The notes beneath the pieces are model-generated. The model saw only the letters and a list, made by a program, of their open reading frames with translations. It searched no databases and was not told the DNA's origin. Positions 4,407 through 46,980 of a DNA stretch of 64,000 bases are shown piece by piece (position 1 is the stretch's first letter; every line of letters starts with the position of its first letter). The translations under genes and the position numbers were made by a program. The stretch lies in the IMG/VR virus record IMGVR_UViG_3300027801_001565; one strand, written 5' to 3'. This DNA comes from a virus.

Positions 4407-4719
4407 TTTTATACCTTTTCTTTTCTAGTTTACTTATCCTCTCCGCCAACTCTGTAGCATTACCCTTCTCTATGGCAGGGTGTGCTTGTGCCTCTAACTT
4501 GTCTATTCTTGTGGCAAGTAATGGATAATCTTGTCTCCACTTTGCCTCTTTTTTGCCTATTTCTATGTCGTATTTTTCGCTTAGGTAAAACATAAAGTTA
4601 TCCAAATGTACCTGGAACCATACTCCTGCCTTTGTACTTAGGAACCACTTACTAAAAGCGTTTCCAAAAACTGCTGTTATACAAGCGATACTTAATTTTA
4701 TTAATATTAACATCTCCAC
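4399..4719 (-). CDS. Membrane-anchored hypothetical protein (possible lysis accessory)
   Basis: N-terminal hydrophobic helix; translationally coupled upstream of the spanins. Confidence 0.5.
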   Translation of the reverse strand: MEMLILIKLSIACITAVFGNAFSKWFLSTKAGVWFQVHLDNFMFYLSEKYDIEIGKKEAKWRQDYPLLATRIDKLEAQAHPAIEKGNATELAERISKLEKKRYKNE

Positions 4720-5483
4720 CTCTTTAATGATTGGGCCTTTCTAGTCGGCCGCCCTTTATCGTCTTCCTTAACACAATTATCTACAGTTCTCTTACCTTTC
4801 TTCTTAGAGCCTTGTAACTTGTATCCGTCCCAACATGCTTTACCGTCTAATCCTTTTGCCTTTTCCTCAGTAAGAAAATTTGAGAAGTCCATCATTCCTC
4901 TCTCCTCTTTCTGTAGATTCATTCCTTCACGAGTCGCCTTGAATAATTTCTGTCCATGTTCGTCTGAATGGTTAGGGTGTAGTCCAGATTTAAAAGATTT
5001 GTAATCGTTATTAGTGGCATGAGCTCTCATCTTTGTTCCACTTATACCCGACACACCTTCAGCATCAGGATCTCTATGTCCTGCTGAGAGAATATGTATT
5101 TTCTTATAGTCGTATTCTTTTCCGTTGTACTTATGAGCCAACGCTTTAAATTGTTTTACTCTGTCAGAACCCACAACCATTGTTGCGTGTGTATGTCCTT
5201 CCTGATTGAATTTTTTAAGTTGGTGTAAAAATGAAGGGTGTTCTTTAGTAGAGTTTGAGAAGTTTACATCAGGGTGCACATGTTTTAAATAATCTGTCTT
5301 ATGATTGTGATGTAAAGGATCTGTTTTAGGTTTTTGTGAATGACTAACAACCACTGAATGGTTAGCACCAATCTTATCTGCATGTGATTTAACCTTGTCA
5401 ACTACCTTAGAATGTCCAGCAGTTGGTGGGTTCATCCTACCATATGAAAATACTATGTGTTTATCTTTATTTTCTGTTGTCAT
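4707..5483 (-). CDS. Phage cytidylyltransferase-like HIGH-superfamily nucleotidyltransferase, His-rich, with C-terminal CWxGY module
   Basis: Motifs YGRMNPPTAGH (HIGH-like), MVVGSDRV and ISGTKMR. Confidence 0.75.
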   Translation of the reverse strand: MTTENKDKHIVFSYGRMNPPTAGHSKVVDKVKSHADKIGANHSVVVSHSQKPKTDPLHHNHKTDYLKHVHPDVNFSNSTKEHPSFLHQLKKFNQEGHTHATMVVGSDRVKQFKALAHKYNGKEYDYKKIHILSAGHRDPDAEGVSGISGTKMRAHATNNDYKSFKSGLHPNHSDEHGQKLFKATREGMNLQKEERGMMDFSNFLTEEKAKGLDGKACWDGYKLQGSKKKGKRTVDNCVKEDDKGRPTRKAQSLKRWRC

Positions 5484-6647: not shown

Positions 6648-6655
6648 TATTTATA
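6648..6655 (-). promoter_or_regulatory. T4-type late promoter
   Basis: TATAAATA 5 nt upstream of the ATG at 6642. Confidence 0.75.
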
Positions 6656-7439
6656 ACTCCTGAACATACGGAAAGTCCAGCCGAGCTGTTTTTGTTCCTC
6701 GTAATTTCTCTACTTCTGGTGGTGCTAGTGGTGCGTAAAAATGATCTTCACTAGTATATACTGTCTTATCTACTGCGTTGTTTACGCTACCATGCTTTCC
6801 AGCACGGACATGGTCTATAATAATAGGCGTGTCTCTGAAAGAAACATCTAATTTTGCTACTCTATTCATAAACTCTCTGTCCCCGTGGTGGTGTCCTGTG
6901 AAGGACTCGTCATACCCACCAGCTTCCCAGAATATTGTCTTAGACATCAAAAAACAATTCAAATGGCCTGAATATCTAGTGTCACTCGTTAGTCTAAATA
7001 GCTTTTGTTGCCACCTAGCATAACTCATATGATGATAAACACTATTAGGAGTAGGACGTATTTGTCTGAACCTAGCAACTTCCCCTGGGGGGATAATCAT
7101 ATCTATATCTGCAAATTGTATCCATTCTGTTGGGGCAACTGTAGCTATTAAATTTCTACAGCCATGACTATTAAACCCTAGGTTCTCTGTAACTCTCCAA
7201 ACTTGTAGCGTTGGACCCCACTCTGGAGGCCGCCAATCGCCAATAACTTCCATTGCAGAAGTTTGTTCGGAGCCATCGTCTACGAGGACTATATCACATC
7301 CTTGACTGTAATGTTCCCATTGCGCTATCTGTTCGCGCAGTCTGTCGGGCTCGTCAAAGTATGTGAAACCGAAAGTTAATCTACTCGGTTCCCTCGAAGT
7401 CTTTGACATCTGTTGCTGGGAAGTCAATAGTGTCTCCAT
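6651..7439 (-). CDS. GT-A fold glycosyltransferase (GT2/GT7-like)
   Basis: LVDDGS, CRN, DID (DxD) and GGYDESFTGHHHGDREF motifs. The start may be at 7409. Confidence 0.8.
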   Translation of the reverse strand: METLLTSQQQMSKTSREPSRLTFGFTYFDEPDRLREQIAQWEHYSQGCDIVLVDDGSEQTSAMEVIGDWRPPEWGPTLQVWRVTENLGFNSHGCRNLIATVAPTEWIQFADIDMIIPPGEVARFRQIRPTPNSVYHHMSYARWQQKLFRLTSDTRYSGHLNCFLMSKTIFWEAGGYDESFTGHHHGDREFMNRVAKLDVSFRDTPIIIDHVRAGKHGSVNNAVDKTVYTSEDHFYAPLAPPEVEKLRGTKTARLDFPYVQEL

Positions 7440-7707: not shown

Positions 7708-7873
7708 TATACAACTCCAAATTTTTAGTTATTTCTTTTAAATCGATACTGTTTTTTGTAGCTAATTTCTTAGCTGTGTCTTTCCAATAAGCTCTAAAGC
7801 TAGGGTCTAGTGTTCTACGGCTTGCGTTCAAGCAGTTAACTACTCTGCGCGTGTTCTGATCTAGTTTTTTCAT
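7676..7873 (-). CDS. Hypothetical protein
   Basis: ATGA-coupled ORF with a GAGG SD. Confidence 0.55.
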   Translation of the reverse strand: MKKLDQNTRRVVNCLNASRRTLDPSFRAYWKDTAKKLATKNSIDLKEITKNLELYNAEVETSSIH

Positions 7874-8367
7874 AATCTTTCCTCTGTGTAAGGCAGTTCG
7901 CCTTGTATTAATAATTCGGCTGACAATTTAGGGCCTGCCTCCACGATTCTATTTCTTAGAGATGTACTACTAAAAGTATGATCTCGTTTGTTATAGAATA
8001 ATTCAATGTTGCGATCTAAACAAATCTGCTTGGCGGTGAATTCTTTATTTCTATATTCCTCACCTAGTATTCTCATGTTCAATGGGAGTGTTAGAAATAA
8101 ATCTTCCAATTCGTCTTCAGTAGAGTACATAACGATCTCATCAACATACTTTACAGCAGCTAATTGTATTTGTCGTTCTACTATACTTTGTATGGGTCTG
8201 TTCTTAACATCACCACGATCAATAGTAGGATCAACCTGTAGCGCTGCTATGAGATAATCACAATGACGTTTAGCTTCTTCTAACATTACAACATGTCCTG
8301 CATGTAACAAGTCAAATGTGCTACAGGTAATTCCTATAGAGCCACAATCTTTATAATCTAATCTCAT
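7870..8367 (-). CDS. Glycerol-3-phosphate cytidylyltransferase-like (TagD family)
   Basis: TFDLLHAGH HIGH motif, RPIQSIVER, VKYVDEI and FSSTSLR. Confidence 0.85.
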   Translation of the reverse strand: MRLDYKDCGSIGITCSTFDLLHAGHVVMLEEAKRHCDYLIAALQVDPTIDRGDVKNRPIQSIVERQIQLAAVKYVDEIVMYSTEDELEDLFLTLPLNMRILGEEYRNKEFTAKQICLDRNIELFYNKRDHTFSSTSLRNRIVEAGPKLSAELLIQGELPYTEERL

Positions 8368-8537
8368 TGTATCCATCCTATAATTATATTTAGCATTATT
8401 AAATACACACAAGCAAGGTTAGACATTACTATAAAGGTTCGGATATATGAAATTCGGTTTTCATTATTAACATCATATCCATCCTCTTCGTCAAAAGATC
8501 CTAGTGCGTGTTTCCATATTGTCCACAACTTATTCAT
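8364..8537 (-). CDS. Small membrane protein (paralog of 25118..25306)
   Basis: LW-x-x-W-x-x-x-LG ... IRT plus one TM helix. Confidence 0.6.
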   Translation of the reverse strand: MNKLWTIWKHALGSFDEEDGYDVNNENRISYIRTFIVMSNLACVYLIMLNIIIGWIQ

Positions 8538-14389: not shown

Positions 14390-15422
14390 TTATTTCTTTA
14401 GCAATCATATCAACTGAACCAATAGTGTACCTAGCTTTAACCCATTCTGAAAACGAAGGGTCTTGTAATATAGGTAGCCAAAACTCTTTCTGCAAATCTT
14501 TAGCTCTTACTTTAGGTTCTACAACTTCGCCTGTATCCATATTAACTCTCTGATACCAACCATTGCTAGGTTTAATTACATGTCCAGATTCTATTCCCAT
14601 ATCCAATAGCCCAGACCATTTACTAATGCCTTTCTCCCAGGATACTTCTACAGGGATTTTAGATTTCTCTCTAACAAACCTAGACTTCTCAACATTAATT
14701 ACAAAGGAATATCCTGTAATTTCTGTGCCTGTTTTCTCTTGTCGTCTACCGATAATAAAAATGTTATCTGCTGAGTAGTAAACACCTGTGCCACCACTAA
14801 CAACATCTTTAGGAAACAAACCAATCTCTTTATATGTATGATTAATTACAATAGCTGGGATGTCTTTAATAGTTAAGTGAGGAGTAACCATTCTGAATAA
14901 GGACTTCATTTGTTTAGCCCTTGTCATGTCTGCTACACTCTTACCTTCTAAAGCATCTTCTACTTCTTTCTTACTTGCTAAGTTACCAATAGAGTCTACA
15001 ATAATCATAACGTGGTCTTCACGTTCGATACCTGCCAACTGTTGCATAATGTCATGCTTTAGTTGTTCAATATCTGCGATAGGTGTATGTACTACTCTAT
15101 CTGTATCAATCTCAAATGTCTCAAAATAAGACTTAGGTGCACCAAATTCTGAATCGTAGAATAAGATTACTCCGTCCTCATATTTGTTTAAAAAACTTTT
15201 AGCTAACAACATACCGAATGCTGTTTTAAAATGTTTACTAGGACCTGCGAATACTGTTAAGCCAGGTGTCAACCCGCCATCTAGTTTTCCACTTAATGCA
15301 ACGTTAACCGCCGGGACGGATGTTTGTATTAAGTCTTGATCGTTAAAGAACTTAGATCCTGTAAGGATATCAGTCTGTTTAATTGTTGAATTCTTCTGAA
15401 TTCGTTCTATGAGATTACTCAT
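14352..15422 (-). CDS. uvsX: RecA-like recombinase UvsX
   Basis: AGPSKHFKT, FYDSEFG, DSIGNLASKKE and VADMTRAK. Confidence 0.97.
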   Translation of the reverse strand: MSNLIERIQKNSTIKQTDILTGSKFFNDQDLIQTSVPAVNVALSGKLDGGLTPGLTVFAGPSKHFKTAFGMLLAKSFLNKYEDGVILFYDSEFGAPKSYFETFEIDTDRVVHTPIADIEQLKHDIMQQLAGIEREDHVMIIVDSIGNLASKKEVEDALEGKSVADMTRAKQMKSLFRMVTPHLTIKDIPAIVINHTYKEIGLFPKDVVSGGTGVYYSADNIFIIGRRQEKTGTEITGYSFVINVEKSRFVREKSKIPVEVSWEKGISKWSGLLDMGIESGHVIKPSNGWYQRVNMDTGEVVEPKVRAKDLQKEFWLPILQDPSFSEWVKARYTIGSVDMIAKEINEEDIDKAYSEV

Positions 15423-16182
15423 TATTTCTCCTGCTTGTGTTAGCTTCGATTGCTATTTTCATTATATTAAGTGTATTATAGCATAGTGTAGATGCATGAG
15501 TCAAGTCCTTAGGGAGACATGTACCACCAAAACCGATGAGTCCATCAGGACCGGGTACGTCCCAATGTGTACCACCTAAATTTTTATCTTCCTGCATAAA
15601 CTTTTTAATAACACTATAATCCATATTAAGGCTGTCGCAAATTTCATTGAAATCATTTGCCAAGCCCACCTTTACTGCTAACGCTGCGTTTCTAGCCATT
15701 TTAATCATCGACGCCTCTAGAGGAGAACAAACTACAACTTTCTTTTTATTACCATACCAGGCATGTTTAGTCCTAGTAATCCATTGTAAAATATTATCAC
15801 AATTATTACACCCTATAACAATAGGAATATCTGAGTCATCGACATCTTCTTTCCAATGTCTTTCTCTCAAAAACTCTGGCATTATTACATGTCCTTTGTT
15901 AGCATATTTTATACATTGATCAGGCCCAATAGTACTTCTAATTATGGCTTGTTCGATGGGTAAAGTTTCTAGTATATTATCTATAATAGAAGTGTCTAAC
16001 TTTCCATCAATAAGGTTAGTTGGAACACAAATAAAAGAATATTCAATATTATCCCAATCAGTTACATTGTAACCTTTAACAGGATCATGTATCTCTATTT
16101 CTAGTTTTTCAACCAACCAAGATTTCAGAAAGTATTCTGTTGCTTGTCCTACAAATCCATACCCAACGATAGCTACTTTCAT
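15415..16182 (-). CDS. UDP-glucose/GDP-mannose dehydrogenase family protein
   Basis: GYGFVG Rossmann motif, ICVPT, RST, PEFLRE and GFGGTCLPKD. Confidence 0.9.
   Translation of the reverse strand: MKVAIVGYGFVGQATEYFLKSWLVEKLEIEIHDPVKGYNVTDWDNIEYSFICVPTNLIDGKLDTSIIDNILETLPIEQAIIRSTIGPDQCIKYANKGHVIMPEFLRERHWKEDVDDSDIPIVIGCNNCDNILQWITRTKHAWYGNKKKVVVCSPLEASMIKMARNAALAVKVGLANDFNEICDSLNMDYSVIKKFMQEDKNLGGTHWDVPGPDGLIGFGGTCLPKDLTHASTLCYNTLNIMKIAIEANTSRRNNE
15475..15504 (-). promoter_or_regulatory. Sigma70-type promoter for uvsX (intragenic)
   Basis: TTGACT-18-TATAAT with TGC immediately before the -10. Confidence 0.6.
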
Positions 16183-22128: not shown

Positions 22129-22218
22129 TTAGGTAGTAGTTTCTGTGAATTCAACTACTAGTGTTGAGCTGTGTCCTTTGATAAGAATTCCATACATTAT
22201 GTAACCTTGCATAATCAT
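22129..22218 (-). pseudogene. Truncated/deleted copy of the 34-aa TM peptide
   Basis: MIMQGYIMYGILI-KGH...: first 13 aa are identical, and the TM core FANTAVYVIIQMYF is missing. Confidence 0.5.
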
Positions 22219-22219
22219 C
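22180..22219. repeat. 40-bp direct repeat, copy B
   Basis: 38/40 identical to 20742..20781. Confidence 0.9.
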
Positions 22220-22952
22220 TCTCAGATATCTCCTGCTTTGGTAAATATTTTTGCCATTGTAGTGGGACATTGCCTGTATTATACCATGCACCAAGATGCT
22301 GCTTGAACATATCAAGATCATATGGGCCGGCTCTAAACCAAATATTGGCTGCTATTTTTTCGCCTGATGTTACTACGTCTGCTGAATGTAACGAGTGAGG
22401 ATTTGGAAATGCCTGACTAGGATTGGTGTTTTCAAAGAATATTGCTGTTCCTTGCTTTGGTTTTATAGACTTTCCTACATGTTTAAATGTTGTATTTCCT
22501 CCTTCGAAGTCATCATTCAAATATAACAATCCTGTAAGTATTCTATTACCTGCCTGTTTAAAGAATGGATCATTACTCTCAGGATTAAACGCATCCATGT
22601 GGCCGTCGTAGAACTCTCCCTCGTTGTATTTAACTAATTGTAAACCTTCTGCTTGGAATTTTTCCATTCTTGTAACTGCACAAGCTCTAGCCCTGAATGT
22701 ATCGGCCCATCCATGATATCCATATCCTGATATATGGTTTGTTCTTCCAGGGTGTGCCTCCTCGGAGCCTTTCTCAAGTACAGCACCTTTTCGCCAAGCT
22801 GCGTTATCTTCTATCTCTATAAGTGCCCGTTCACATTCCTCTGGACTAAACAAGTTTGACACCATGAATATGGTAGGATTAAAATAGTTTATAGTGCTAA
22901 ATTCATAAGTATTGCCGTTAGAAACGGTCTTCATCATTAAGTCTTCATTCAT
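22215..22952 (-). CDS. 2OG-Fe(II) oxygenase, prolyl 4-hydroxylase-like
   Basis: EGLQLVKY, HMD, RILTGLLYLNDDFEGGNT, and LH...GEKIAANIWFR. Confidence 0.9.
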   Translation of the reverse strand: MNEDLMMKTVSNGNTYEFSTINYFNPTIFMVSNLFSPEECERALIEIEDNAAWRKGAVLEKGSEEAHPGRTNHISGYGYHGWADTFRARACAVTRMEKFQAEGLQLVKYNEGEFYDGHMDAFNPESNDPFFKQAGNRILTGLLYLNDDFEGGNTTFKHVGKSIKPKQGTAIFFENTNPSQAFPNPHSLHSADVVTSGEKIAANIWFRAGPYDLDMFKQHLGAWYNTGNVPLQWQKYLPKQEISER

Positions 22953-24214
22953 AATATATTTCCAAATGTTTCAAAGAAGTTTGTTCCTCTTCGCCTATCG
23001 TGTTCTGTAGTAAATGTCCAAAAGTCTTTTCTGTGTTTAACTAGTTCTTCACCTTTGAATCTGTTAGATGTTATCCATCCAACTGTTTTCTCAAATTTTT
23101 CAATCTCCGATGTATTAAATACATCATGATCCTTCATCTGCGTTATACAATTCTCCATAATACTTATATGAGCATCGTCTGCAATTTGTGCTGAAAGGTG
23201 AGATGGTTCTACCATAAATGGCATGTCTACGGTAATTAGATCACCATAATTATTTTTAAGCTCTGCCATTTTGTCAATAAAAAGATGCGTCTTGGGTATT
23301 GATAGGAAGTTGTATGTATTCATTATCCCTACAGATACTCCTGAGTCCAATACAGCGTGTAAGTTATCCTCAAAGTGTTTAATATCCAATCCGTTTCTAA
23401 TATACTCTGCCTGCTTACCCCACGAATCTATACTGACATATAATTTTGCATCAGGGATGTCTTTGACTAAATCTATATATCTTAGTACTCTCTTTTTAGA
23501 CACCATAAGATTAGAGTTACAATGAAATGTTAATCCTTCTTTAGGGTGTTCTTTCACATACTGGAGTAACCTATATGTGTTCTTATCTAATAAAGGCTCA
23601 CCTCCTGTAACTCTAAGAACAAATAAATGCTCATATGCCTTTGGAAACCACTCCCAGAACTTTTTGACATAGGGAGAGTTTTCTATTTGAGGTGTATGAA
23701 TCAAATTGTAATCTGATGCTAGTAGCTTATATGGACCATGCTCTTGTATTTCCTTTTCCCATGTAGTGCTAAATACAGGACCACAGTAACTACATGCCAT
23801 TTGACATTTATTAGTGAATGATATTTCTAAATATTTAGGGTAAACATAAGACGTTCCAGCAGCTACAGCTTTTAGGTCTATGAGGTTATCGTGTGTAAAA
23901 AACTGTCCTGCTAAAGTCATCCTATCTGATCTTAGGCCTAGATCCTCTACGTCCCAACAATAAGAGCAGTTTTTAGGGCGTTCACCTGCAAGCATTTGTC
24001 TCCTCTCTTCTATCTTTTGAGGAGTGTTGTGTAAGTCGGAATCTAAAGGTATCAGATGCGTTGGGTTATGGTAACAGGAGTGTGCCCTGCCATTGCCTAA
24101 GTGCATTTCTTGATGATACCACTTTAAGACGCAAAAGCCTTTTCCGACGGTATCTAGTTTCGATTGTATTAAGTCGAGGACTTCTATCTGGTTTTTATTT
24201 AACTTTTTTTCCAA
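22949..24214 (-). CDS. Radical SAM protein with N-terminal twitch/SPASM-like Cys cluster
   Basis: CQMACSYC, TGGEPLL, and N-terminal FC...SCYH...CSYCW. Confidence 0.9.
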   Translation of the reverse strand: MEKKLNKNQIEVLDLIQSKLDTVGKGFCVLKWYHQEMHLGNGRAHSCYHNPTHLIPLDSDLHNTPQKIEERRQMLAGERPKNCSYCWDVEDLGLRSDRMTLAGQFFTHDNLIDLKAVAAGTSYVYPKYLEISFTNKCQMACSYCGPVFSTTWEKEIQEHGPYKLLASDYNLIHTPQIENSPYVKKFWEWFPKAYEHLFVLRVTGGEPLLDKNTYRLLQYVKEHPKEGLTFHCNSNLMVSKKRVLRYIDLVKDIPDAKLYVSIDSWGKQAEYIRNGLDIKHFEDNLHAVLDSGVSVGIMNTYNFLSIPKTHLFIDKMAELKNNYGDLITVDMPFMVEPSHLSAQIADDAHISIMENCITQMKDHDVFNTSEIEKFEKTVGWITSNRFKGEELVKHRKDFWTFTTEHDRRRGTNFFETFGNIL

Positions 24215-39870: not shown

Positions 39871-40326
39871 TTACGCCTCGTATATCGCGCTGTTAGCTCC
39901 GTGTTCACGAACCTCACAAGACGTAGCGAAACATCTACCACCACTCTTTTCAGATACCAAGTTGTCTGCAAAATGAAATGCCTGCTCAGCAAACTTCTCA
40001 CAACCTACGCCATTCATAACTCTCACTTCTGAAAGTCCTCTAGCTTCTGTTTGTAAAAAGAATTCCATTTCAGGATCGTCTTTTGCTACTGCGTGCTTGT
40101 GATCAAAGTTATCTTTTAGCCATGCTTTAAGTTCTTTCAAGTCTCCAAAGTCGACTACCCAATTTTTGTCATCTAAAATATTACAACCAAATGTAAATTT
40201 AAAAGATAAAGCATAGCCGTGTAGTAAACTACAATGGCTGTGTAATGCTAGTGGTTGTCTAAACATACAGGATAATCCTTCTTCGTGTCCGTATGTCTTA
40301 GTTGATAAGTATTTAAATTCTTTCAT
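39871..40326 (-). CDS. queD: 6-carboxytetrahydropterin synthase
   Basis: HCSLLHGY, WVVDFGDLK, FDH, GCEKFA and EVREHGANSA. Confidence 0.85.
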   Translation of the reverse strand: MKEFKYLSTKTYGHEEGLSCMFRQPLALHSHCSLLHGYALSFKFTFGCNILDDKNWVVDFGDLKELKAWLKDNFDHKHAVAKDDPEMEFFLQTEARGLSEVRVMNGVGCEKFAEQAFHFADNLVSEKSGGRCFATSCEVREHGANSAIYEA

Positions 40327-41387
40327 TATGTAAGCTCCTTATATAGATTAGTAGCTGAAAAGTATTCTTTTTCCAGCTTATCTCTGTTTGTTTCAATGGC
40401 CGTTTGTACTGCCTGGTGTTCAAAGTTTGTCATCAAGTCTGTTATCTTCTGACATAACTCTTCCTTATGGTCCTGGTATGTCCTCCAATCTTCAGCCCAA
40501 TCTGATGGGTATTTAAATATGTCATCATACATTTCCATATAAGAAAGTCTATTAGGAACTAATGGAATCCCACCGCCTCTTAATATCTCATAACAGCTGA
40601 TGCCTAATGTCTCTTGATTGTTTGCTGAGAATACCATTTTAGATTCTTCGATAAGTCTGTTGTATTCTGGTTTTGTAAGATTGTAATCATTACAATTAAT
40701 AAATTGGTATTGAGGTAATTCCTCTGCCAGATCTAGAAATATATCTAGTTGTTTTTCTGGTGCGTTTCTGTGAGGGAATAGAATAATATCTTTCTTTTCT
40801 GTACCTGGATTTATATGTGTATTAAGATACTCCATAGGCCATCCTGTTCTTACAATTTTACTTCTTAAATATTCCTCATCTTGTTGTCCATCAAACATTA
40901 CAGTAGCAAACATACCAATGTGAAATTGAGATGCAAAATAGTTTCTATCGAAAGCATCAAACATAGCATACTCTGTATGTCTAACCCACTTCTTATTTCC
41001 TATACGTCTACCTAAGAAGTCATGTGCATCGTAACTACCTGCGTGCCATAAACCATGTGTAGTTATATCAACGTTCAATAACTCTGCCATGTATTTAAGT
41101 TGTAACACACCAGGGTGCCAAGCATCTGCAAAGACAAAGTGATCTCCATCTTCTACTTTTTCTTTCTGAAAAAGATCTGCTATAATTTTAACTTGTTCAG
41201 ACTTATAAATGTTCGTGCCTGCAAAGTCTAAGAAGGCACCGGGAGTGGTGCCATTTGCTATGTCTTCTGGTCCTTCTATAACAGTAACGTCCTGTCCTGT
41301 TCTATCAGATATTGACTGGGGGAACTCGTCTTTCCACTGAGCTGTATATCTAGTCTCTACATATTCTAAATCAACTAAATAAATCAT
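40326..41387 (-). CDS. GT-B fold glycosyltransferase within the deazaguanine cluster
   Basis: ILFPHRNAPEKQ and QETLGISCYE (E-x7-E) followed by GIPLVP, the signature of GT4-type nucleotide-sugar binding domains. Confidence 0.75.
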   Translation of the reverse strand: MIYLVDLEYVETRYTAQWKDEFPQSISDRTGQDVTVIEGPEDIANGTTPGAFLDFAGTNIYKSEQVKIIADLFQKEKVEDGDHFVFADAWHPGVLQLKYMAELLNVDITTHGLWHAGSYDAHDFLGRRIGNKKWVRHTEYAMFDAFDRNYFASQFHIGMFATVMFDGQQDEEYLRSKIVRTGWPMEYLNTHINPGTEKKDIILFPHRNAPEKQLDIFLDLAEELPQYQFINCNDYNLTKPEYNRLIEESKMVFSANNQETLGISCYEILRGGGIPLVPNRLSYMEMYDDIFKYPSDWAEDWRTYQDHKEELCQKITDLMTNFEHQAVQTAIETNRDKLEKEYFSATNLYKELT

Positions 41388-41772
41388 TTTCTATTATCCC
41401 TCCATTCTCATTATCCTCGTATACTTCAACTCTAACAGGTCTGTTAGGATACTGTTCTTCTATATAATTTATAAGAGCTTCACCTATCATTTCACAAGAC
41501 TGGTGGTCTAGTTCGAGGACTGCGGTAGAGCTGTCTACTTCGTCATAAAGTCTTTCTAGTTCACGTTTAAATTGTATGAACTCTACATCTCTGTCGTTAT
41601 GTTCTACACCGAGTGTTACATAGAAATGGAACATGTGTCTGTGAGGATATCCTAAAAAGCTAACATCGTCCCATTCACCTGTAGCATACTTAGGATTTGT
41701 ATCTGCTCCTGGGAAAAAATGTACTCCCTCTTTTTGGAAGCTTACTTTTATGAAGCGGTTCTTATAAGCCAT
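41371..41772 (-). CDS. dpdL: QueD-like T-fold protein, probable CDG decarboxylase (DpdL-like)
   Basis: LGYPHRHMF (LxxxHRHxF), SCEMIG and VEVYED T-fold features; lies in a que/fol cluster lacking queC. Confidence 0.65.
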   Translation of the reverse strand: MAYKNRFIKVSFQKEGVHFFPGADTNPKYATGEWDDVSFLGYPHRHMFHFYVTLGVEHNDRDVEFIQFKRELERLYDEVDSSTAVLELDHQSCEMIGEALINYIEEQYPNRPVRVEVYEDNENGGIIENDLFS

Positions 41773-42305
41773 GTTGGTTCCTCTCTGTTTGTATATTTAG
41801 CAAAGTCAATTTTGTATTTGTTGTAATACCTGCGATAAGAGTTGACTACACTCTCACCTTTTACATCGTCTGGCATTGCCAACGGTAATCCTTTTACATC
41901 TGCCTCACTAGCAAATGGAATATTTTTAGGTGCGTACTTCAAAAGATGTTCTAATTTTTCTTGTGTTAAGTGAGTACGCCCATACCTGTGAGTATATTCT
42001 TTAGATAGTTTATACCATAGATCATATAGATAATTATAATTGGCAGAGCTACTTCTAACCCAGATACCATCTGGGTGGTTAACATGGCTTGCCTTATATA
42101 ATGTAGATTCCATATTGTTATTACTATGTCTCCATCGCTTGATAGCTCTACCGTTTTTTGTTTTGTCTCCATATAAATCTCCGTCTAATACTCTATGTGC
42201 TGTAGACATTAGTTGTGCGTATTCAATTACCATTTTAACAACATGCTTATCACAATGTTGTTCTGCACATAGTAGTGGGTTTTCATTAAGTAAAAATATG
42301 TTCAT
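41748..42305 (-). CDS. Pyrimidine-dimer DNA glycosylase/endonuclease V-like family protein
   Basis: MNIF...HCDKHVVKM...EYAQLMSTAH, HVNHP, EYTHRYGRTH and AMPD...YRRYY. Confidence 0.8.
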   Translation of the reverse strand: MNIFLLNENPLLCAEQHCDKHVVKMVIEYAQLMSTAHRVLDGDLYGDKTKNGRAIKRWRHSNNNMESTLYKASHVNHPDGIWVRSSSANYNYLYDLWYKLSKEYTHRYGRTHLTQEKLEHLLKYAPKNIPFASEADVKGLPLAMPDDVKGESVVNSYRRYYNKYKIDFAKYTNREEPTWLIRTAS

Positions 42306-43576
42306 TCAAATAAATCCTCTAAACTACTAGGTGCCTCCGTACCAACAGCCATGCTCTTCATACTGCCACCTAAATACTGGTTGTTTTCCCAGGCATCGTA
42401 TTCTTCACGATTAGTTACATTGTACAAGTTTCTGAACTGTCCGTCAAGTTTTAACTTACCCGTAAACTTCAATAAGGTATCCTTGTCTAACATCATAGAT
42501 TCTAAGTGTGCCATAAAGTTTCTAATGGACATTAGGATAAATGCTGTCCTAACATAGATCCAAGTGTTTAAGTTGCCATATTTCTCTTTAGCTTTTAAGG
42601 AAGGTGTGTTCATAAGCTCGTGAAATTCGTCTAGATCTACGCCCAATTGGACTGTTTCCTGCACGTTATTGTACATTTCACGATACAAATTAGACATTTT
42701 CCTATTGAACTTAGTTGTGCCTTTACCCATGTAATATAAACCCGTCTCAACCGCCCTGCTGTGTGTAGTAGAGTCATATGATATTTCTACATTGTCATAC
42801 AAACCGTTCTGACAAAAGACTAAGTAAGGAAGCATACGTCTGATACTACCTACTCCCAAGACGTGTAAGTGCATGATCTCTTGTGGCCATATCTTAGCAA
42901 TCTCAGAGGCAATAAAGGCTCTTTTAACATCTTCTAATGGGCCGGTGCCTAGAGCCGCTGCTCCCATTGCAACACCACCAATTCTATCGTGCCATTCTGA
43001 TGGTACTTCTTCCATTAGAAGCTCATACCATCTAAGGTATGTATCAATACAGTTACCCTGTAGGATAATATAAGGTTTACATGTACTACCTGCTTTATCA
43101 AATATTTCTAATTGTCTTTTAACATTTCTACCTGTCTTACGAGCCAGTTCTTCATAGTTCTCAAAGTCAAAGAACCTAGCCTTTGTATCGTTTCTATCTG
43201 ACTTACCGCCTGTAAGGATAACAGGTATCTCATCAAAGCACATGCCAACGTCTGCCCACTTGGCTTGGTTCTCATATACTTTATCTTTTAATTCATCTGT
43301 AATTACCATACCTTGGGTAACAATCTGTAGTCCACCTGAGTCTGCGTGGATCTCATTTACATGAGGCTTATATACTGTGAACCTTTCACCAAAGCTTGAC
43401 TCTGTATGTGCGTTGTAAAGCATAGAAAACTTGTGGCTATGTACATCAGTTACTAACTTGTCTATAAGCATGTTTATTATCTGGGAGTTTGTCTCGTCTT
43501 TTGCTACACTAGGATTACTAAATCTCATATAGCTAGTACCCGAAACAACATAGTCTAGTTTTCTATTTTTAATCAT
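42302..43576 (-). CDS. dpdA: tRNA-guanine transglycosylase-fold 7-deazaguanine insertase (DpdA-like)
   Basis: ADSGGLQ, FDEIP, ILQG, HLHVLGVG and SYDSTTH match TGT catalytic motifs; clustered with folE/queD/queE. Confidence 0.75.
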   Translation of the reverse strand: MIKNRKLDYVVSGTSYMRFSNPSVAKDETNSQIINMLIDKLVTDVHSHKFSMLYNAHTESSFGERFTVYKPHVNEIHADSGGLQIVTQGMVITDELKDKVYENQAKWADVGMCFDEIPVILTGGKSDRNDTKARFFDFENYEELARKTGRNVKRQLEIFDKAGSTCKPYIILQGNCIDTYLRWYELLMEEVPSEWHDRIGGVAMGAAALGTGPLEDVKRAFIASEIAKIWPQEIMHLHVLGVGSIRRMLPYLVFCQNGLYDNVEISYDSTTHSRAVETGLYYMGKGTTKFNRKMSNLYREMYNNVQETVQLGVDLDEFHELMNTPSLKAKEKYGNLNTWIYVRTAFILMSIRNFMAHLESMMLDKDTLLKFTGKLKLDGQFRNLYNVTNREEYDAWENNQYLGGSMKSMAVGTEAPSSLEDLFE

Positions 43577-44082
43577 GATCTAAGAATCTCAATTAACACC
43601 TTAGCTTCTGCTGTTGCATCGTCTAAAGCATTGTGGTTATTTGCCTTGGGCAATCTTTTATTCAATACATTCATAAGAGTTCGTAAACAAGATATGTCCC
43701 AGAACTTCCAGGGTATGTCTACGTTCACTGCTTTCATTGCACTCTCTAATATAACAATATCAAAGTTGGCACCGTAACCCCATGCTGGGAATGATTGTGT
43801 GCCGTACCAAGACACAAATTTGTCTAGTGCTTCTTGTAGATCAACAGGATCTTTTTGCCAAGCCTCTCTAGCCTCGACAGTTTGTTCTTGCCACCACTTA
43901 ATTGTACCAGGATCTATGTGTAGTCCTGCCTCTTTACATGACTTAGCATCTACATTAATATAAAACGTATCTACAATTTCCATGTTGTCAATTAGTACTG
44001 CCCCAATAGATACAATACATGCGTTAGGTTCTGTACTTAGAGTTTCTAAGTCAATTACTACATGTTTTTTAGATGTGTCCAT
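43573..44082 (-). CDS. DEDDh 3'-5' exonuclease
   Basis: IDLETL, GANFD and HNALDDA. Confidence 0.88.
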   Translation of the reverse strand: MDTSKKHVVIDLETLSTEPNACIVSIGAVLIDNMEIVDTFYINVDAKSCKEAGLHIDPGTIKWWQEQTVEAREAWQKDPVDLQEALDKFVSWYGTQSFPAWGYGANFDIVILESAMKAVNVDIPWKFWDISCLRTLMNVLNKRLPKANNHNALDDATAEAKVLIEILRS

Positions 44083-44761
44083 TGCCTATTTCCTGTAATT
44101 TAATATTGTCCATAAATTCTTGTTTAAGATGTATGTTAGTTTTTAACTCACCTTTAACAACCGTTGTTTGTGTAGAACTATTACTTGCCATTATGCCTCT
44201 GTTCTCACAGCAACCATGTCTCGCTCTAATGTAAACTGCTACACCCTTACTTTGTGTAAGTTTCTCAATACGTTCTGCTATCATTTCTGTTAGCTCTTCT
44301 TGTAAGTGTCCGCGATTTGATAAGTGCTGAGCAACTCTTGTGTACTTGGACAAACCAATAACAAAGTCACCTGGCAAACACCCTATGTAACATACACCAC
44401 TCACTGGTTGGTGATGATGTGAACACATGGATTTAATATTCATTCGTACAACAATTAGTTGATCGTACTGGCCTTCGTTAGGGAAAGAAGCTATCCTAGG
44501 ATCTGGTAAATACCTACCACTCATTATCTCATTAATATACATCTTTGCCAAACGATTAGCTGTACCTTCTGAATTTGGATCATTGTCTGTGTCTATAATA
44601 AGACTACTTAATACTCCTTGAAACTTACTTGCCAACTCGTCTATAAGTTGTTGTCTCTCATAGTCATCTAATATATATTCTGAAATATTATCAGCGGCAA
44701 AGTAACGTTTACCGTCTGCCTTTAGTCTTGTCTTAATTATCTCGCTCATTAAATCTGTCAT
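44069..44761 (-). CDS. folE: GTP cyclohydrolase I
   Basis: TANRLAKMY, SMCSHHHQP, IGLSKYTR, LQEELT and HGCCENRG. Confidence 0.95.
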   Translation of the reverse strand: MTDLMSEIIKTRLKADGKRYFAADNISEYILDDYERQQLIDELASKFQGVLSSLIIDTDNDPNSEGTANRLAKMYINEIMSGRYLPDPRIASFPNEGQYDQLIVVRMNIKSMCSHHHQPVSGVCYIGCLPGDFVIGLSKYTRVAQHLSNRGHLQEELTEMIAERIEKLTQSKGVAVYIRARHGCCENRGIMASNSSTQTTVVKGELKTNIHLKQEFMDNIKLQEIGNGHI

Positions 44762-45183
44762 TATTTTTTCTCCCACGGAAATACTAACCATTGTGTGTTA
44801 TTATACAGAGTCTTACCTACAAAGTCAAGCTCCATTGTACCAATTTTATCATAAAGTACCGCCCATTGGCTAGTAGGCATGTACTCTTTTATCTGTTGTA
44901 TTGTTAACCCAGAGTCACATATATCATCTACAAATATCAGCTCGTCTACGTTCTCTTCTAAGTTAAGTAGAGTTGGTACATCTTTATCGCTACCATCTCT
45001 TGTCTGCCATTGTAGAGCTGTAAAAGGTATGTCTAACATCTGAGATATCATAACCCCTGGTATAAGTCCACCTCTACTAATGCCTATTACTCTTTTATAT
45101 TCTCTCTCACCTATTCGTAATGCCAACAACTGGACAATCTTTTCCATCTGACTCCAGTTGATATACATTTTAGGCTCACTCAT
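44761..45183 (-). CDS. Purine phosphoribosyltransferase (Gpt-like)
   Basis: GISRGGLIP, PRPP-binding FVDDICDSGLT, and WLVFPWE. Confidence 0.9.
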   Translation of the reverse strand: MSEPKMYINWSQMEKIVQLLALRIGEREYKRVIGISRGGLIPGVMISQMLDIPFTALQWQTRDGSDKDVPTLLNLEENVDELIFVDDICDSGLTIQQIKEYMPTSQWAVLYDKIGTMELDFVGKTLYNNTQWLVFPWEKK

Positions 45184-45392
45184 ATTTTTACCGCCAGTAC
45201 AACTAGGATACATAGCTGAATTATAATAACCAACAGTAACTCTAATGCTAAAATTGTGTGATACCATATCCATCTTGTTTTATATGCTGTATCTATTGAT
45301 ACGTCTGCTGGATCTGGATCTAGCCATTGTTCCTTCGGTATCGCTATCGGTGAGGTGCCTCCCCACATTACTTCTTTAAATCGTTTCCACAT
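45180..45392 (-). CDS. Small membrane protein
   Basis: AYKTRWIWYHTILALE followed by a C-terminal TM helix. Confidence 0.6.
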   Translation of the reverse strand: MWKRFKEVMWGGTSPIAIPKEQWLDPDPADVSIDTAYKTRWIWYHTILALELLLVIIIQLCILVVLAVKI

Positions 45393-45393
45393 T

Positions 45394-46281
45394 TTATGTC
45401 CCCCATGCGTTGCCGAAGAGATCTATATGTAATCGAGGACTAAATTTATATCCAGTCTTCATACATGCCTCTGCTACGTCTTTTGCTGTTAGTGCTTGTT
45501 GTTCCATTGTTGCGCCTTCTGGCATACAATATACCGAATGTATCTGTACCCCACTTTTCTGATACTGTAGAACAAAATAGTCTACCTCAGTAAAGTCTTC
45601 TATATCACGAACAACAAATTTGTTATATAGAAAGCTGTTATATACCTGATTCATTGTAACCAGTGCGTCTGGAATACATGCCTCGTCTTGCTTTTCACCA
45701 CTAAGGCTTAGCTTAGGAGATGTACTCCATGTTACATGTACTTTATCGTGGTTCGCATTAAAAAACTCTACTAGTGCTGGTGTAACCTTTTGTGTGCCAT
45801 TAGTTTCAAACGTTACATTCTTTAATCCTATGTTCATACACATTTGTATGAGCTCAGGCCATACTCTCTGCCAGCCTAACAAAGGTTCACCACCTGTAAT
45901 AACTAAATGTATGTCTTCCTTCTCATCAAACTTCCCATTAGGTAGTAGGCTGACGATATGTTCAAATACCTCATCAGAAGTCTTTGTCATTTGTAGATGC
46001 TTATATTTCATAGCCCATGAAGCAGAACTATCACATCCAACAGGTGTAACTGGAAGTTCTGATATGTCTTTGTAAGCGTCTGGATGATTTTTATCGCCCT
46101 TAGGATCTAACATGTAGGGCATCTGATCTGTAGCAAGGTAGTTGCCACGTTCCTGTCCAAAGCCTGCACACTCAAAGTTGCAACCGAAAGTTCTCAAGAA
46201 TACACTAGGGACTCCTACGAATCTGCCTTCGCCTTGGATGCTATAAAAAGCTTCGCTGTATCTAAGTTTTGATTGTTTCAT
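45394..46281 (-). CDS. queE: 7-carboxy-7-deazaguanine synthase (radical SAM)
   Basis: FYSIQGEG, VFLRTFGCN, TGGEPLL, ETNGT, SPKL and SPRLH. Confidence 0.92.
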   Translation of the reverse strand: MKQSKLRYSEAFYSIQGEGRFVGVPSVFLRTFGCNFECAGFGQERGNYLATDQMPYMLDPKGDKNHPDAYKDISELPVTPVGCDSSASWAMKYKHLQMTKTSDEVFEHIVSLLPNGKFDEKEDIHLVITGGEPLLGWQRVWPELIQMCMNIGLKNVTFETNGTQKVTPALVEFFNANHDKVHVTWSTSPKLSLSGEKQDEACIPDALVTMNQVYNSFLYNKFVVRDIEDFTEVDYFVLQYQKSGVQIHSVYCMPEGATMEQQALTAKDVAEACMKTGYKFSPRLHIDLFGNAWGT

Positions 46282-46289
46282 AATATGGT

Positions 46290-46318
46290 ATTATATATAA
46301 GTCCTAGGTAGAAGTCAA
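46290..46318 (-). promoter_or_regulatory. Sigma70-type promoter of the deazaguanine/gp47-46 operon
   Basis: TTGACT-17-TATAAT, 8 nt upstream of the queE ATG. Confidence 0.8.
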
Positions 46319-46980
46319 GACATAAATTCGTCGTTTGGTTGACCGTTTTCTTCAATTACTTTCTCGGTGGGGTTAAGTGCCTCTGCTTCTGCCTCTGCTG
46401 CTGCCAAAGCCTCTGCTGCTTTAATTTTTTCGTCTAAGTATTTAGGTCTACGTTTAGGCATCTTCTTGCCTTCGTTCTGTTTGTCTGCTTTAATATTATC
46501 TGCTTCAGCTTGTTCAATAATATTTCTCATATAACCTAAGTAGTCGTTAGTGTGTTCAGTACCGTCTGCACTATTCTCTAGAATCTGTTCAATGTCTAAC
46601 GATTTAATGTACTTGAACTTTGTTTCCATCTGACGCTTCTCTTTCTGAATACGTCTAATGAATGCGTAGTATGTTATTTGTGTGAAGTAAGCAAAGGGAT
46701 TAGATGATTTTGCTGGATCAAAGTTGTGCATATATGTAAGACAGTTTTCAATGCCGTCTAGGATCATTTCATCTCTGAATGTATAGTTTACAAAGTTTGC
46801 CTTGTAAGCTAAATGGTTTGCAATCTTAACAAAACATTCTCCGATGTAGTTTGTTACACGTGGTTTTTCTTCACCACTCTCTTCTGCTTCCAACCTGGAA
46901 GTACGGTACTCAGATATCCTTGCTAAGAATTCTTTGTTGTCAATGTAATGTGCCGAGTTTGGGTCACGTCTTTTAGCCAT
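46315..46980 (-). CDS. gp55: Late-transcription sigma factor
   Basis: HYIDNKEFL, NFVNYTFRDEMILDGIENC and NPFAYFTQI...AFIRRIQKEK. Confidence 0.96.
   Translation of the reverse strand: MAKRRDPNSAHYIDNKEFLARISEYRTSRLEAEESGEEKPRVTNYIGECFVKIANHLAYKANFVNYTFRDEMILDGIENCLTYMHNFDPAKSSNPFAYFTQITYYAFIRRIQKEKRQMETKFKYIKSLDIEQILENSADGTEHTNDYLGYMRNIIEQAEADNIKADKQNEGKKMPKRRPKYLDEKIKAAEALAAAEAEAEALNPTEKVIEENGQPNDEFMS

What the first reader, a model, noticed from the sequence alone, without database searches (positions are those of the whole stretch)
40326..41772. GT-B glycosyltransferase coupled between the DpdL-like gene and queD: candidate sugar-hypermodified deazaguanine
Seen: the 353-aa GT4-like ORF overlaps the DpdL-like gene and queD at its ends, so it is part of the operon rather than a neighbour. 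Established: T4 alpha- and beta-glucosyltransferases are GT-B enzymes that glycosylate modified DNA bases. Inference: the substrate may be a deazaguanine base or nucleotide (for example the CDG carboxylate or a DpdL product). The phage's UDP-sugar dehydrogenase (15415..16182) could supply the donor. I know of no characterised glycosylated 7-deazaguanine in DNA.
Basis: inference. Interest (0 to 1): 0.75.

Follow-up and report, generated by a model that had tools for sequence, protein, structure and literature searches.

The report
Sugar transferase inside phage deazaguanine operon
An uncultured marine T4-like phage carries the genes for swapping guanine in its DNA for a 7-deazaguanine, and a real sugar-transferring enzyme sits inside that gene set here and in many unrelated phages, which predicts a sugar-bearing purine in DNA that no paper I could search describes.

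Summary
ORF 40326-41387 (-) is a 353-aa GT-B fold glycosyltransferase of the retaining GT4 type. It overlaps a DpdL-like T-fold gene by 17 nt and queD by 1 nt.

It lies in a packed array between gp55 and gp47: queE, Gpt-like PRTase, folE, exonuclease, DpdA, a 185-aa basic protein, DpdL, GT, queD.

The link to deazaguanine genes is strong:
- A DpdL gene lies directly upstream of the GT in 76 of 80 related viral contigs. The other four contigs end within 400 nt of the GT.
- Seven cultured phage lineages carry both genes in one cluster.
- The pairing survives at 26% GT identity.
- DpdL occurs without the GT in six lineages, so the GT looks like an add-on to DpdL.

The transglycosylase here resembles DpdA2 (KVP40 type), not DpdA3.

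Not shown: the acceptor, the donor, and whether the sugar ends up in DNA. The GT is very acidic, and it is no closer in fold to T4 alpha-GT than to small-molecule GT4 enzymes. "No QueC" is not secure for the whole genome. The "UDP-sugar dehydrogenase" is a truncated form; in Campylobacter phage CP220, where I found no GT, it sits near queE.

I found no paper on a glycosylated 7-deazaguanine in DNA. This scan has reported the same module before on other DNA, in at least 158 genomes, with the same reading.

The parts
40326..41387 (-). 353-aa GT-B / GT4-like retaining glycosyltransferase (P0001), the finding itself
   Evidence: AF2 pLDDT 94.8. Foldseek and VIA matches to BshA, SPS, MshA and PglA. 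EX7E motif, R207 and K212 conserved. Weak PF00534 match.
41371..41772 (-). 133-aa DpdL-like T-fold (QueD paralog) protein (P0002); overlaps the GT start by 17 nt
   Evidence: Motif LGYPHRHMF = LxxxHRHxF of DpdL. 46-55% identical to the GT-adjacent genes of ACP17, PA5oct and Phosso, and 33% to the Cellulophaga phage phiST locus. phrog_17812.
39871..40326 (-). QueD-like 6-carboxytetrahydropterin synthase; its start shares one base with the GT stop
   Evidence: PF01242 at 1e-12 and phrog_2389 at 2e-37.
42302..43576 (-). 424-aa DpdA-type DNA-guanine transglycosylase, DpdA2-like
   Evidence: 32-37% identity (E 1e-45 to 1e-57) to KVP40, VH7D and Stenotrophomonas phage genes, some annotated queuine tRNA-ribosyltransferase. 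AF2 pLDDT 93.6. All top 50 Foldseek matches are tRNA-guanine transglycosylases.
41748..42305 (-). 185-aa basic protein (pI 9.15) between DpdA and DpdL; role unknown
   Evidence: phrog_624 'DNA binding protein' at 2e-51. No Pfam, NCBIfam or PDB sequence match. Found within 10 kb in 11 of the 15 T4-like loci; in one of them (L019) it lies about 8 kb upstream, not in the cluster.
43573..44082 (-). DEDDh-type 3'-5' exonuclease inside the operon
   Evidence: PF16473 at 3e-40.
44069..44791 (-). FolE, GTP cyclohydrolase I
   Evidence: PF01227 at 2e-39.
44761..45273 (-). Gpt-like purine phosphoribosyltransferase
   Evidence: PF00156. NF006613 xanthine PRTase at 1e-20, below its cut-off. Present in 38 of 80 GT loci; a PA5oct ORF in that phage's cluster (EST35_0321) matches it, and BUCT-ZZ01 has an annotated one in its cluster.
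45394..46281 (-). QueE-like radical SAM CDG synthase
   Evidence: 29% identity, E 5e-24, to PA5oct QueE. No Pfam hit at 1e-3.
44800..44828 (-). Promoter-like site TTGACT-17-TATAAT just upstream of folE; probable start of the transcript that includes the GT
   Evidence: 11 of 12 match. The total promoter-like count in the region is not above the shuffled expectation, so this is a consensus match only.
15415..16182 (-). 255-aa truncated UDP-glucose/GDP-mannose dehydrogenase-like protein (P0291); possible accessory, link unproven
   Evidence: PF00984 at 1e-14. GxGxxG and GGTCLPKD kept. Homologs in 22 of 80 GT loci, 8 of them overlapping the GT stop. Also one gene from queE in CP220.

Best explanation
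P0001 is an active retaining GT4-type glycosyltransferase. It has become a dedicated accessory of the DpdL-type 7-deazaguanine DNA-modification pathway.

Inferred pathway, from established family functions: FolE, QueD and QueE turn GTP into 7-carboxy-7-deazaguanine (CDG). The DpdL-like T-fold protein processes CDG. DpdL has been proposed, but never demonstrated, to be a decarboxylase giving 7-deazaguanine. The DpdA2-like transglycosylase exchanges guanine in phage DNA for the deazapurine.

Inferred role of the GT: it uses an NDP-sugar to attach a sugar to the DpdL-linked deazapurine, so virion DNA carries a sugar-bearing 7-deazaguanine that shields it from host nucleases.

I cannot decide whether the sugar is added to the free base before DpdA inserts it, or to the base already in DNA. 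I lean slightly towards the free base. The attachment atom is unknown: the carboxylate of CDG, or C7 or a ring nitrogen of 7-deazaguanine.

Shown here: the fold, the conserved catalytic motif, operon membership and the cross-lineage pairing with DpdL. Inferred: the activity, the donor, the acceptor and the presence of sugar in DNA.
For: - GT-B/GT4 fold at high confidence, with EX7E, Arg and Lys conserved across 24-90% identity.
- Translational coupling to DpdL and queD inside a packed one-strand array.
- DpdL lies directly upstream in 76 of 80 IMG/VR loci, which fall into two different genome architectures. The four exceptions have less than 400 nt of upstream sequence.
- A GT homolog of 26% identity still overlaps a DpdL gene.
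- Seven cultured lineages carry GT and DpdL in one deazaguanine cluster, with the two genes in either order.
- DpdL occurs without the GT in phiST-type phages, RHph_I1_18, Bakedbeans, Ahp1, D479 and MA9V-3. The family proper was not found without DpdL. The GT therefore depends on DpdL, not the reverse.
- A TGT-fold DpdA is present here. A distant DpdA-like gene is present in the second architecture (hhalign 94%).
- No dCMP hydroxymethylase or dCTPase homolog in the window or the 80 loci, so hmC is an unlikely acceptor.
- Cui et al. obtained no dDG from ACP17 dpdL plus dpdA in E. coli and suggested that other enzymes may be needed. ACP17 has this GT between the two genes.
- PA5oct, which carries the GT, has restriction-resistant DNA with a modified G of unknown identity.
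- Leaning to the free base: DpdL was modelled as acting on the base. The GT has net charge -24. Its nearest folds act on small molecules.
Against: - No biochemical or mass-spectrometric data exist for any GT-bearing phage.
- 7-Deazaguanine has no hydroxyl group. A retaining GT4 forming a C-glycoside, an N-glycoside or an acyl glycoside on it has no precedent that I know of.
- DpdL's own activity is unproven.
- All known phage DNA glycosylations act on DNA, whereas this GT shows no basic character by bulk charge.
- It is no closer to T4 AGT (Z 17.9) or the HY126 DNA arabinosyltransferase (Z 19.0) than to generic GT4 enzymes.
- The window protein scores below the Pfam PF00534 threshold.
The pathway may therefore not stop at CDG or 7-deazaguanine.
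Confidence: 0.5

Rival explanations
1. The GT acts within the deazaguanine pathway, but the sugar is not in the final DNA. One version: it makes a transient glycosyl ester of the CDG carboxylate, an activated acyl intermediate that stands in for ATP-dependent QueC chemistry. DpdL or another enzyme then removes the sugar. Another version: it tags a by-product.
For: - The strict GT-DpdL pairing is as well explained by consecutive steps on a small molecule.
- No canonical QueC was found among the window ORFs scanned.
- The GT is acidic and most like small-molecule GT4 enzymes.
- CDG offers only a carboxylate as an oxygen nucleophile (inference from chemistry).
Against: - The phiST-type phages have DpdL but gave no hit in the GT search. 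phiST is reported to carry dDG. DpdL chemistry therefore does not need the GT.
- Five other DpdL lineages also lack the GT.
- Spending an NDP-sugar only for activation is unprecedented in deazaguanine pathways.
Confidence: 0.15
2. The GT glycosylates something other than a deazapurine: another DNA base, a phage or host protein, or a cell-envelope or sugar metabolite. Its place in the operon would then reflect shared early expression, or a hyperplastic insertion slot (the T4 alpha-gt position between gp55 and gp47).
For: - The closest structural relatives act on malate, inositol phosphate, sugars and lipid-linked glycans.
- A sister clade in Xanthomonas phage PhiXhv-12 lies with GlmS and a BshB-like deacetylase and has no DpdL.
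- The window has other sugar genes: a GT2, cytidylyltransferase-like genes and the short dehydrogenase.
- The slot between gp55 and gp47 holds alpha-gt in T4.
Against: - Hitch-hiking does not explain pairing with DpdL in two unrelated genome architectures and seven cultured lineages, in both gene orders and down to 26% identity.
- No hydroxymethylase was found nearby.
Confidence: 0.15
3. The protein is a catalytically dead GT-B scaffold, or it uses a non-sugar donor. It would then serve as a structural partner of DpdL or DpdA.
For: Sub-threshold Pfam score. No experimental data.
Against: The donor-binding and catalytic residues (EX7E, R207, K212) are invariant or nearly invariant across a very large family. 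This is the pattern of an active enzyme.
Confidence: 0.05

Closest known systems
DpdL-type dDG system of Cellulophaga phage phiST (FolE, QueD, QueE, DpdL, DpdA3; Cui, Hutinet et al., NAR 2023, PMC10516641)
   Same: FolE, QueD and QueE plus a DpdL with the LxxxHRHxF motif and a TGT-fold DNA transglycosylase. No canonical QueC in the cluster.
   Different: - This cluster has a GT4 glycosyltransferase coupled to DpdL. phiST-type phages gave no hit in the GT search.
- The transglycosylase here matched KVP40/VH7D-type (DpdA2-like) genes. It did not match phiST or Campylobacter phages, the reported DpdA3 carriers.
- Extra genes here: a Gpt-like PRTase, an exonuclease and a basic 185-aa protein.
T4 alpha- and beta-glucosyltransferases; phage HY126/RB69-type arabinosyltransferases of 5-hydroxycytosine DNA (PMC13326640)
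   Same: - Phage-encoded GT-B enzymes that decorate an already modified base to evade host nucleases.
- The cluster occupies the T4 alpha-gt position between gp55 and gp47.
- Fold similarity: Z 17.9 to AGT and Z 19.0 to the HY126 GT.
   Different: - No sequence relation.
- Those enzymes use a hydroxyl on a pyrimidine in DNA. Here no hydroxymethylase was found, and the candidate acceptor is a purine analogue with no hydroxyl.
- This GT is far more acidic than T4 BGT (pI 9.05) or AGT (pI 6.1).
QTMAN (GTDC1) and QTGAL, the glycosyltransferases that make mannosyl- and galactosyl-queuosine in mammalian tRNA (PMC11755703)
   Same: The only known glycosylation of a 7-deazaguanine derivative within a nucleic acid. 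From my own knowledge, GTDC1 also has a GT4-type catalytic domain.
   Different: - The substrate there is tRNA, not DNA.
- The sugar goes onto the cyclopentenediol hydroxyl of queuosine, which this pathway cannot make.
- A Pfam scan at E <= 10 gave only PF00534 for P0001, so no GTDC1-specific N-terminal family was detected.
BshA, MshA and tetrahydrobiopterin glucosyltransferase (BGluT): small-molecule GT4 enzymes
   Same: Best structural matches: BshA Z 24.6, BGluT Z 20.3. BGluT glycosylates a pterin made through FolE and a QueD-family enzyme.
   Different: 9-15% identity only. Different N-terminal acceptor domain. None of them is linked to QueE, DpdL or DpdA.

Membership tests
GT-B fold, GT4-type retaining glycosyltransferases | Two Rossmann-like domains with an inter-domain cleft | tested here: met
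   AF2 pLDDT 94.8. Foldseek E about 4e-11 to BshA. VIA Z 25.5 and 24.6 over about 300-313 residues.
GT-B fold, GT4-type retaining glycosyltransferases | EX7E motif plus Arg/Lys that bind the NDP-sugar diphosphate in the C-terminal domain | tested here: met
   E267 is invariant; E259, R207 and K212 are at least 90% conserved in A1. The motif aligns to RESLGLMALE of the solved glucosyltransferase 8xsg.
GT-B fold, GT4-type retaining glycosyltransferases | Pfam PF00534 above the gathering score | tested here: inconclusive
   P0001 scores 15.5 bits against a 26.4-bit cut-off. Homolog P0092 scores 27.8; P0040 scores 25.3.
GT-B fold, GT4-type retaining glycosyltransferases | NDP-sugar-dependent transfer activity | not testable with these tools
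   Needs an enzyme assay.
T4-type DNA glucosyltransferases (AGT/BGT) | Sequence homology to AGT or BGT | tested here: not met
   The family profile scores -0.2 and -1.4 bits against T4 BGT and AGT.
T4-type DNA glucosyltransferases (AGT/BGT) | A partner enzyme that creates a hydroxyl-bearing base (dCMP hydroxymethylase gp42, dCTPase gp56) | tested here: not met
   No tblastn match in the window or in the 80 related loci. The rest of the roughly 169-kb genome was not available.
T4-type DNA glucosyltransferases (AGT/BGT) | Binds DNA and flips the target base | not testable with these tools
   Only bulk charge could be computed: pI 4.77, net charge -24.5; family median pI 5.5.
DpdL-type 7-deazaguanine DNA modification system | FolE, QueD and QueE present | tested here: met
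DpdL-type 7-deazaguanine DNA modification system | DpdL with LxxxHRHxF in place of QueD's CxxxHGH | tested here: met
   LGYPHRHMF. H44, R45, H46 and F48 are invariant in 25 sequences.
DpdL-type 7-deazaguanine DNA modification system | TGT-fold DpdA transglycosylase | tested here: met
   Homology to KVP40/VH7D-type genes. TGT fold. Subfamily DpdA2-like, not DpdA3.
DpdL-type 7-deazaguanine DNA modification system | No QueC, so the pathway stops at CDG | tested here: inconclusive
No QueC among the window ORFs scanned. The window covers 64 kb of a roughly 169-kb genome. A relative has a 229-aa QueC-like protein next to nrdB.
DpdL-type 7-deazaguanine DNA modification system | dDG (or another deazaguanine) detected in virion DNA | not testable with these tools
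   Uncultured phage.
QTMAN/GTDC1-type queuosine glycosyltransferases | GTDC1-specific N-terminal domain family | tested here: not met
   A Pfam scan at E <= 10 returned PF00534 only. HMMER filters may hide very weak matches.

The most novel reading that the evidence does not exclude
These phages carry a glycosylated purine analogue in their DNA: a hexose, or after oxidation by the short dehydrogenase a hexuronate, attached to 7-deazaguanine or 7-carboxy-7-deazaguanine. The linkage would be a new type (C-glycoside, N-glycoside or acyl glycoside). The module is widespread in abundant marine T4-like phages and freshwater jumbo-like phages.
Probability: 0.45. Interest if true: 0.85.

Novelty: new variant of a known kind. 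Interest (0 to 1): 0.7.

Why it matters
- Every DNA base glycosylation I came across, from my own knowledge and in the papers read here, is on a pyrimidine (hmC, hmU derivatives, 5-hydroxycytosine). A sugar-bearing deazapurine would be a new class of DNA hypermodification, made by new glycosyltransferase chemistry.
- It could explain why ACP17 dpdL plus dpdA gave no dDG in E. coli.
- It could explain what the unidentified modified G of the therapeutic jumbo phage PA5oct is.
- The family is very large: more than 7,300 metagenomic homologs at E <= 0.001.
- It is directly testable in phages already in culture. One of them is a T4-like cyanophage of Synechococcus elongatus PCC 7942 that carries the same module order as this window.

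Tried and rejected
- Complex prediction of GT (A1) with DpdL (A2): no verdict, score 0.00. This is neither for nor against binding.
- Search for DpdL-GT fusions: the longer DpdL forms (about 270 aa) carry an unrelated N-terminal extension of about 150 aa, not a GT.
- Megablast of the locus against the phage collection: no match.
- Window's own assembly not held. The nearest record, G001, is a 17-kb fragment, so QueC could not be checked genome-wide.
- The 185-aa protein compared with Phosso's annotated 'glycosylase': no similarity. No PDB sequence match for it or for DpdA.
- PADLOC and NCBIfam gave nothing for the GT.
- Short contigs of two GT homologs (P0162, P0141) show no DpdL immediately beside the GT. 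Adjacency is therefore common but not universal; in BUDD, DpdA lies between the two genes.
- Supplementary data of Cui et al. are not held. The MMBR review was not available.
- Idea rejected: that the GT is specifically AGT-like. AGT ranks 36th by Z.
- Idea rejected: that the short dehydrogenase is specific to GT phages. It also occurs in CP220-type phages, and in phage C48C1 beside a sugar epimerase.
Full report
**What is there**

The window is part of an uncultured marine T4-like myovirus.
- Its gp46 is 47% identical to those of Melnitz and cyanophages.
- Identical proteins lie on contigs of up to 169.5 kb, some from Tara samples.
- All genes around the finding are on the minus strand.
- Reading in the direction of transcription: gp55 (46315-46980), QueE (45394-46281), a Gpt-like phosphoribosyltransferase (44761-45273), FolE (44069-44791), a DEDDh exonuclease (43573-44082), a 424-aa protein (42302-43576), a basic 185-aa protein (41748-42305), a 133-aa T-fold protein (41371-41772), the 353-aa ORF of the finding (40326-41387), QueD (39871-40326), then gp47 and gp46.
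- From the PRTase to gp46 the genes overlap by 1 to 31 nt or are 3 nt apart.
- The GT start lies 17 nt inside the T-fold ORF behind a GGAGGG. Its stop shares a base with the queD start.
- Two 11-of-12 sigma-70-like sites (TTGACT-17-TATAAT) precede queE and folE. None of that quality lies between folE and the GT.

**Is it a glycosyltransferase?** Yes, as far as sequence and fold can say.
- Pfam, PHROGs, NCBIfam and PADLOC give nothing at normal thresholds.
- At E <= 10 only PF00534 appears, at 15.5 bits. One of three homologs tested (P0092, 27.8 bits) exceeds its cut-off.
- An alignment of 41 homologs of 24-90% identity shows E259-x7-E267. R207 and K212 are nearly invariant.
- The motif aligns to the same motif of a solved glucosyltransferase.
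- The AF2 model (pLDDT 94.8, pTM 0.91) is a GT-B fold. Foldseek puts BshA, MshA, PglA and glycogen synthase first.
- An all-against-all VIA search gives Z 25.5 (sucrose-phosphate synthase), 24.6 (BshA) and 20.3 (tetrahydrobiopterin glucosyltransferase). It gives 19.0 for the phage HY126 glycosyltransferase and 17.9 for T4 alpha-GT.
- There is no sequence relation to T4 AGT or BGT.

**Neighbours**
- The 133-aa protein has LGYPHRHMF. This is the LxxxHRHxF signature by which Cui et al. separate DpdL from QueD.
- The 424-aa protein is 32-37% identical to the transglycosylase-like genes of KVP40, VH7D and Stenotrophomonas phages. DpdA2 was defined on the related Vibrio phage nt-1.
- Its model (pLDDT 93.6) matches only tRNA-guanine transglycosylases in the top 50.
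- It did not hit phiST or Campylobacter phages, the reported DpdA3 carriers. I call it DpdA2-like.

- tblastn finds the GT in 23 phage records and DpdL in 28.
- Both are present, in one deazaguanine cluster, in the PA5oct group, Phosso, ACP17, BUDD, X1, BCSR5 and BUCT-ZZ01.
- DpdL lies before or after the GT, depending on the phage.
- BUCT-ZZ01 is a T4-like cyanophage of Synechococcus elongatus PCC 7942. Its order is QueE, PRTase, QueD, FolE, DpdA, DpdL, GT, close to the order in this window.
- In 80 IMG/VR loci with GT homologs of 52-79% identity, a DpdL gene lies directly upstream in 76. The other four contigs end within 400 nt of the GT.
- These loci fall into two architectures. One is the T4-like order of this window (15 loci). 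The other has a 510-540-aa protein two genes upstream of DpdL. That protein is a distant DpdA relative (hhalign 94%, E 8e-8).
- A GT homolog of only 26% identity still overlaps a DpdL gene.
- DpdL occurs without the GT in phiST-type phages, RHph_I1_18, Bakedbeans, Ahp1, D479 and MA9V-3.
- The only GT-like gene without DpdL is a distant sister in PhiXhv-type Xanthomonas phages. It lies with GlmS and a BshB-like deacetylase.
- The pattern is asymmetric: the GT needs DpdL, but DpdL does not need the GT.

**What it most likely does**
- Established family functions give GTP to CDG through FolE, QueD and QueE, and base exchange into DNA through DpdA.
- DpdL is a proposed, undemonstrated CDG decarboxylase.
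- The GT, with its donor site intact and its fate tied to DpdL, most likely puts a sugar on the DpdL-linked deazapurine.
- ACP17 dpdL plus dpdA gave no dDG in E. coli. The authors suspected missing enzymes. The GT sits between those two genes in ACP17.
- PA5oct DNA has a modified G of unknown identity.
- No gp42 or gp56 homolog is nearby, so hmC is unlikely as acceptor.

**What remains open**
- *Acceptor atom.* 7-Deazaguanine has no hydroxyl, and CDG offers only a carboxylate.
- *Timing.* The GT is very acidic (pI 4.77, charge -24.5; family median pI 5.5). T4 BGT has pI 9.05 and AGT 6.1. The DpdA of this operon is also acidic (pI 5.75). The nearest folds act on small molecules, and DpdL was modelled as acting on the base. 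This leans slightly towards glycosylation of the free base before insertion. Every known phage DNA glycosylation is post-replicative, so I keep this near even.
- *QueC.* None was found among the window ORFs I scanned. A relative has a 229-aa protein with a PP-loop and a QueC-type zinc motif next to nrdB. One jumbo-like locus has a weaker QueC-like gene two genes after the GT. The end product upstream of the GT is therefore less certain than 'dDG'.
- *Donor.* It is unknown.

**The proposed donor supplier**
- ORF 15415-16182 is a 255-aa protein with a Rossmann motif and the catalytic-cysteine motif of UDP-glucose dehydrogenases. It ends soon after the central domain and has no room for the C-terminal domain.
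- Homologs of about 260 aa occur in 22 of the 80 GT loci. In 8 of these they overlap the GT stop codon. This is a real link.
- In cultured phages most of its matches (14 of 26 records) are in the CP220-type Campylobacter phages. There it lies one gene from queE, and no such phage appeared in the GT search.
- In phage C48C1 a longer form lies beside a sugar epimerase in the same pol-uvsX slot as here.
- It may oxidise the attached sugar, or it may act on a deazaguanine intermediate. Its role as a plain donor supplier is doubtful.

**Literature and earlier notes**
- Searches for glycosyltransferases with 7-deazaguanine, for PA5oct, and for 2025-2026 work on deazaguanine DNA modification found no glycosylated deazaguanine in DNA.
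- Glycosylated queuosine exists in mammalian tRNA.
- This scan has flagged the same module many times: 270 notes in at least 158 genomes. Several follow-ups reached the same reading. I treat these as leads, not as evidence.

**Verdict**
This is a new variant of known kinds (deazaguanine DNA modification and phage DNA glycosylation), and it is testable in cultured phages.

Noticed in passing
window 15415-16182 (-); L091 8992-9762 (CP220); L025, L026, L030, L048, L075, L080, L082 directly after the GT: A truncated (about 255-270 aa) UDP-glucose dehydrogenase-like protein with the catalytic Cys but no C-terminal domain. It travels with deazaguanine clusters in two contexts: overlapping the GT stop in 8 uncultured loci, and one gene from queE in the dADG phage CP220, where no GT was found. 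Its substrate may not be an NDP-sugar.
   Followed up: partly
window 44761-45273 (-): A Gpt-like purine phosphoribosyltransferase lies between queE and folE. It is conserved in 38 of 80 GT loci; a PA5oct ORF in that phage's cluster matches it, and BUCT-ZZ01 has an annotated one. From my own knowledge, tubercidin biosynthesis uses a PRTase on CDG, so a nucleotide-level route for the deazapurine is conceivable.
   Followed up: partly
L096 1009-1698 (relative G002, next to nrdB); L097 1297-2217 (G006, two genes after the GT, behind a fatty-acid-hydroxylase-like ORF): QueC-like PP-loop proteins occur in relatives. The G002 protein has an SGGFDS motif and a C-terminal Cys cluster, and scores 29 bits on PF06508. 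'QueC-less' should not be assumed for this phage group.
   Followed up: partly
window 41748-42305 (-): A basic 185-aa protein (phrog_624 'DNA binding protein', pI 9.15) lies between DpdA and DpdL. It is seen only in the T4-like architecture. It has no Pfam or PDB sequence match.
   Followed up: partly
window 43573-44082 (-): An Rv2179c-like 3'-5' exonuclease is embedded between folE and DpdA. It is conserved in the T4-like loci. Its role in base exchange or repair is unknown.
   Followed up: no
L088 7408-8232 (Rhizobium phage RHph_I1_18): A macrodomain (Appr-1-p processing) protein follows DpdL in a phage that has a close DpdL (52% identity) but no GT. It may be an alternative tailoring enzyme.
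   Followed up: no
P0273-P0289; L089 6212-7363 (Vibrio phage Bakedbeans gp176): DpdL occurs fused to an N-terminal extension of unknown function: about 150 aa in many jumbo-like contigs, and about 260 aa in Bakedbeans.
   Followed up: partly
L094 6755-7858 (Xanthomonas phage PhiXhv-12): A sister clade of the GT (104 bits to the family profile) sits with GlmS and a BshB-like deacetylase and has no deazaguanine genes. This may be a different glycosylation system in jumbo phages.
   Followed up: partly
L023-L087, about 3 kb upstream of the GT (e.g. L049 6688-8259): A 510-540-aa protein conserved in 58 loci is a distant DpdA relative (hhalign 94%, E 8e-8 over the catalytic core). It has no Pfam hit. 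It is possibly a further DpdA subfamily.
   Followed up: partly
window 4707-5483, 6651-7439, 7870-8412, 22215-24214 (-): Other tailoring-type genes in the window: two cytidylyltransferase-like ORFs (one 68% identical to an ORF near the GT in L097), a GT2 glycosyltransferase, and a 2OG-Fe(II) oxygenase overlapping a 421-aa radical SAM protein.
   Followed up: no
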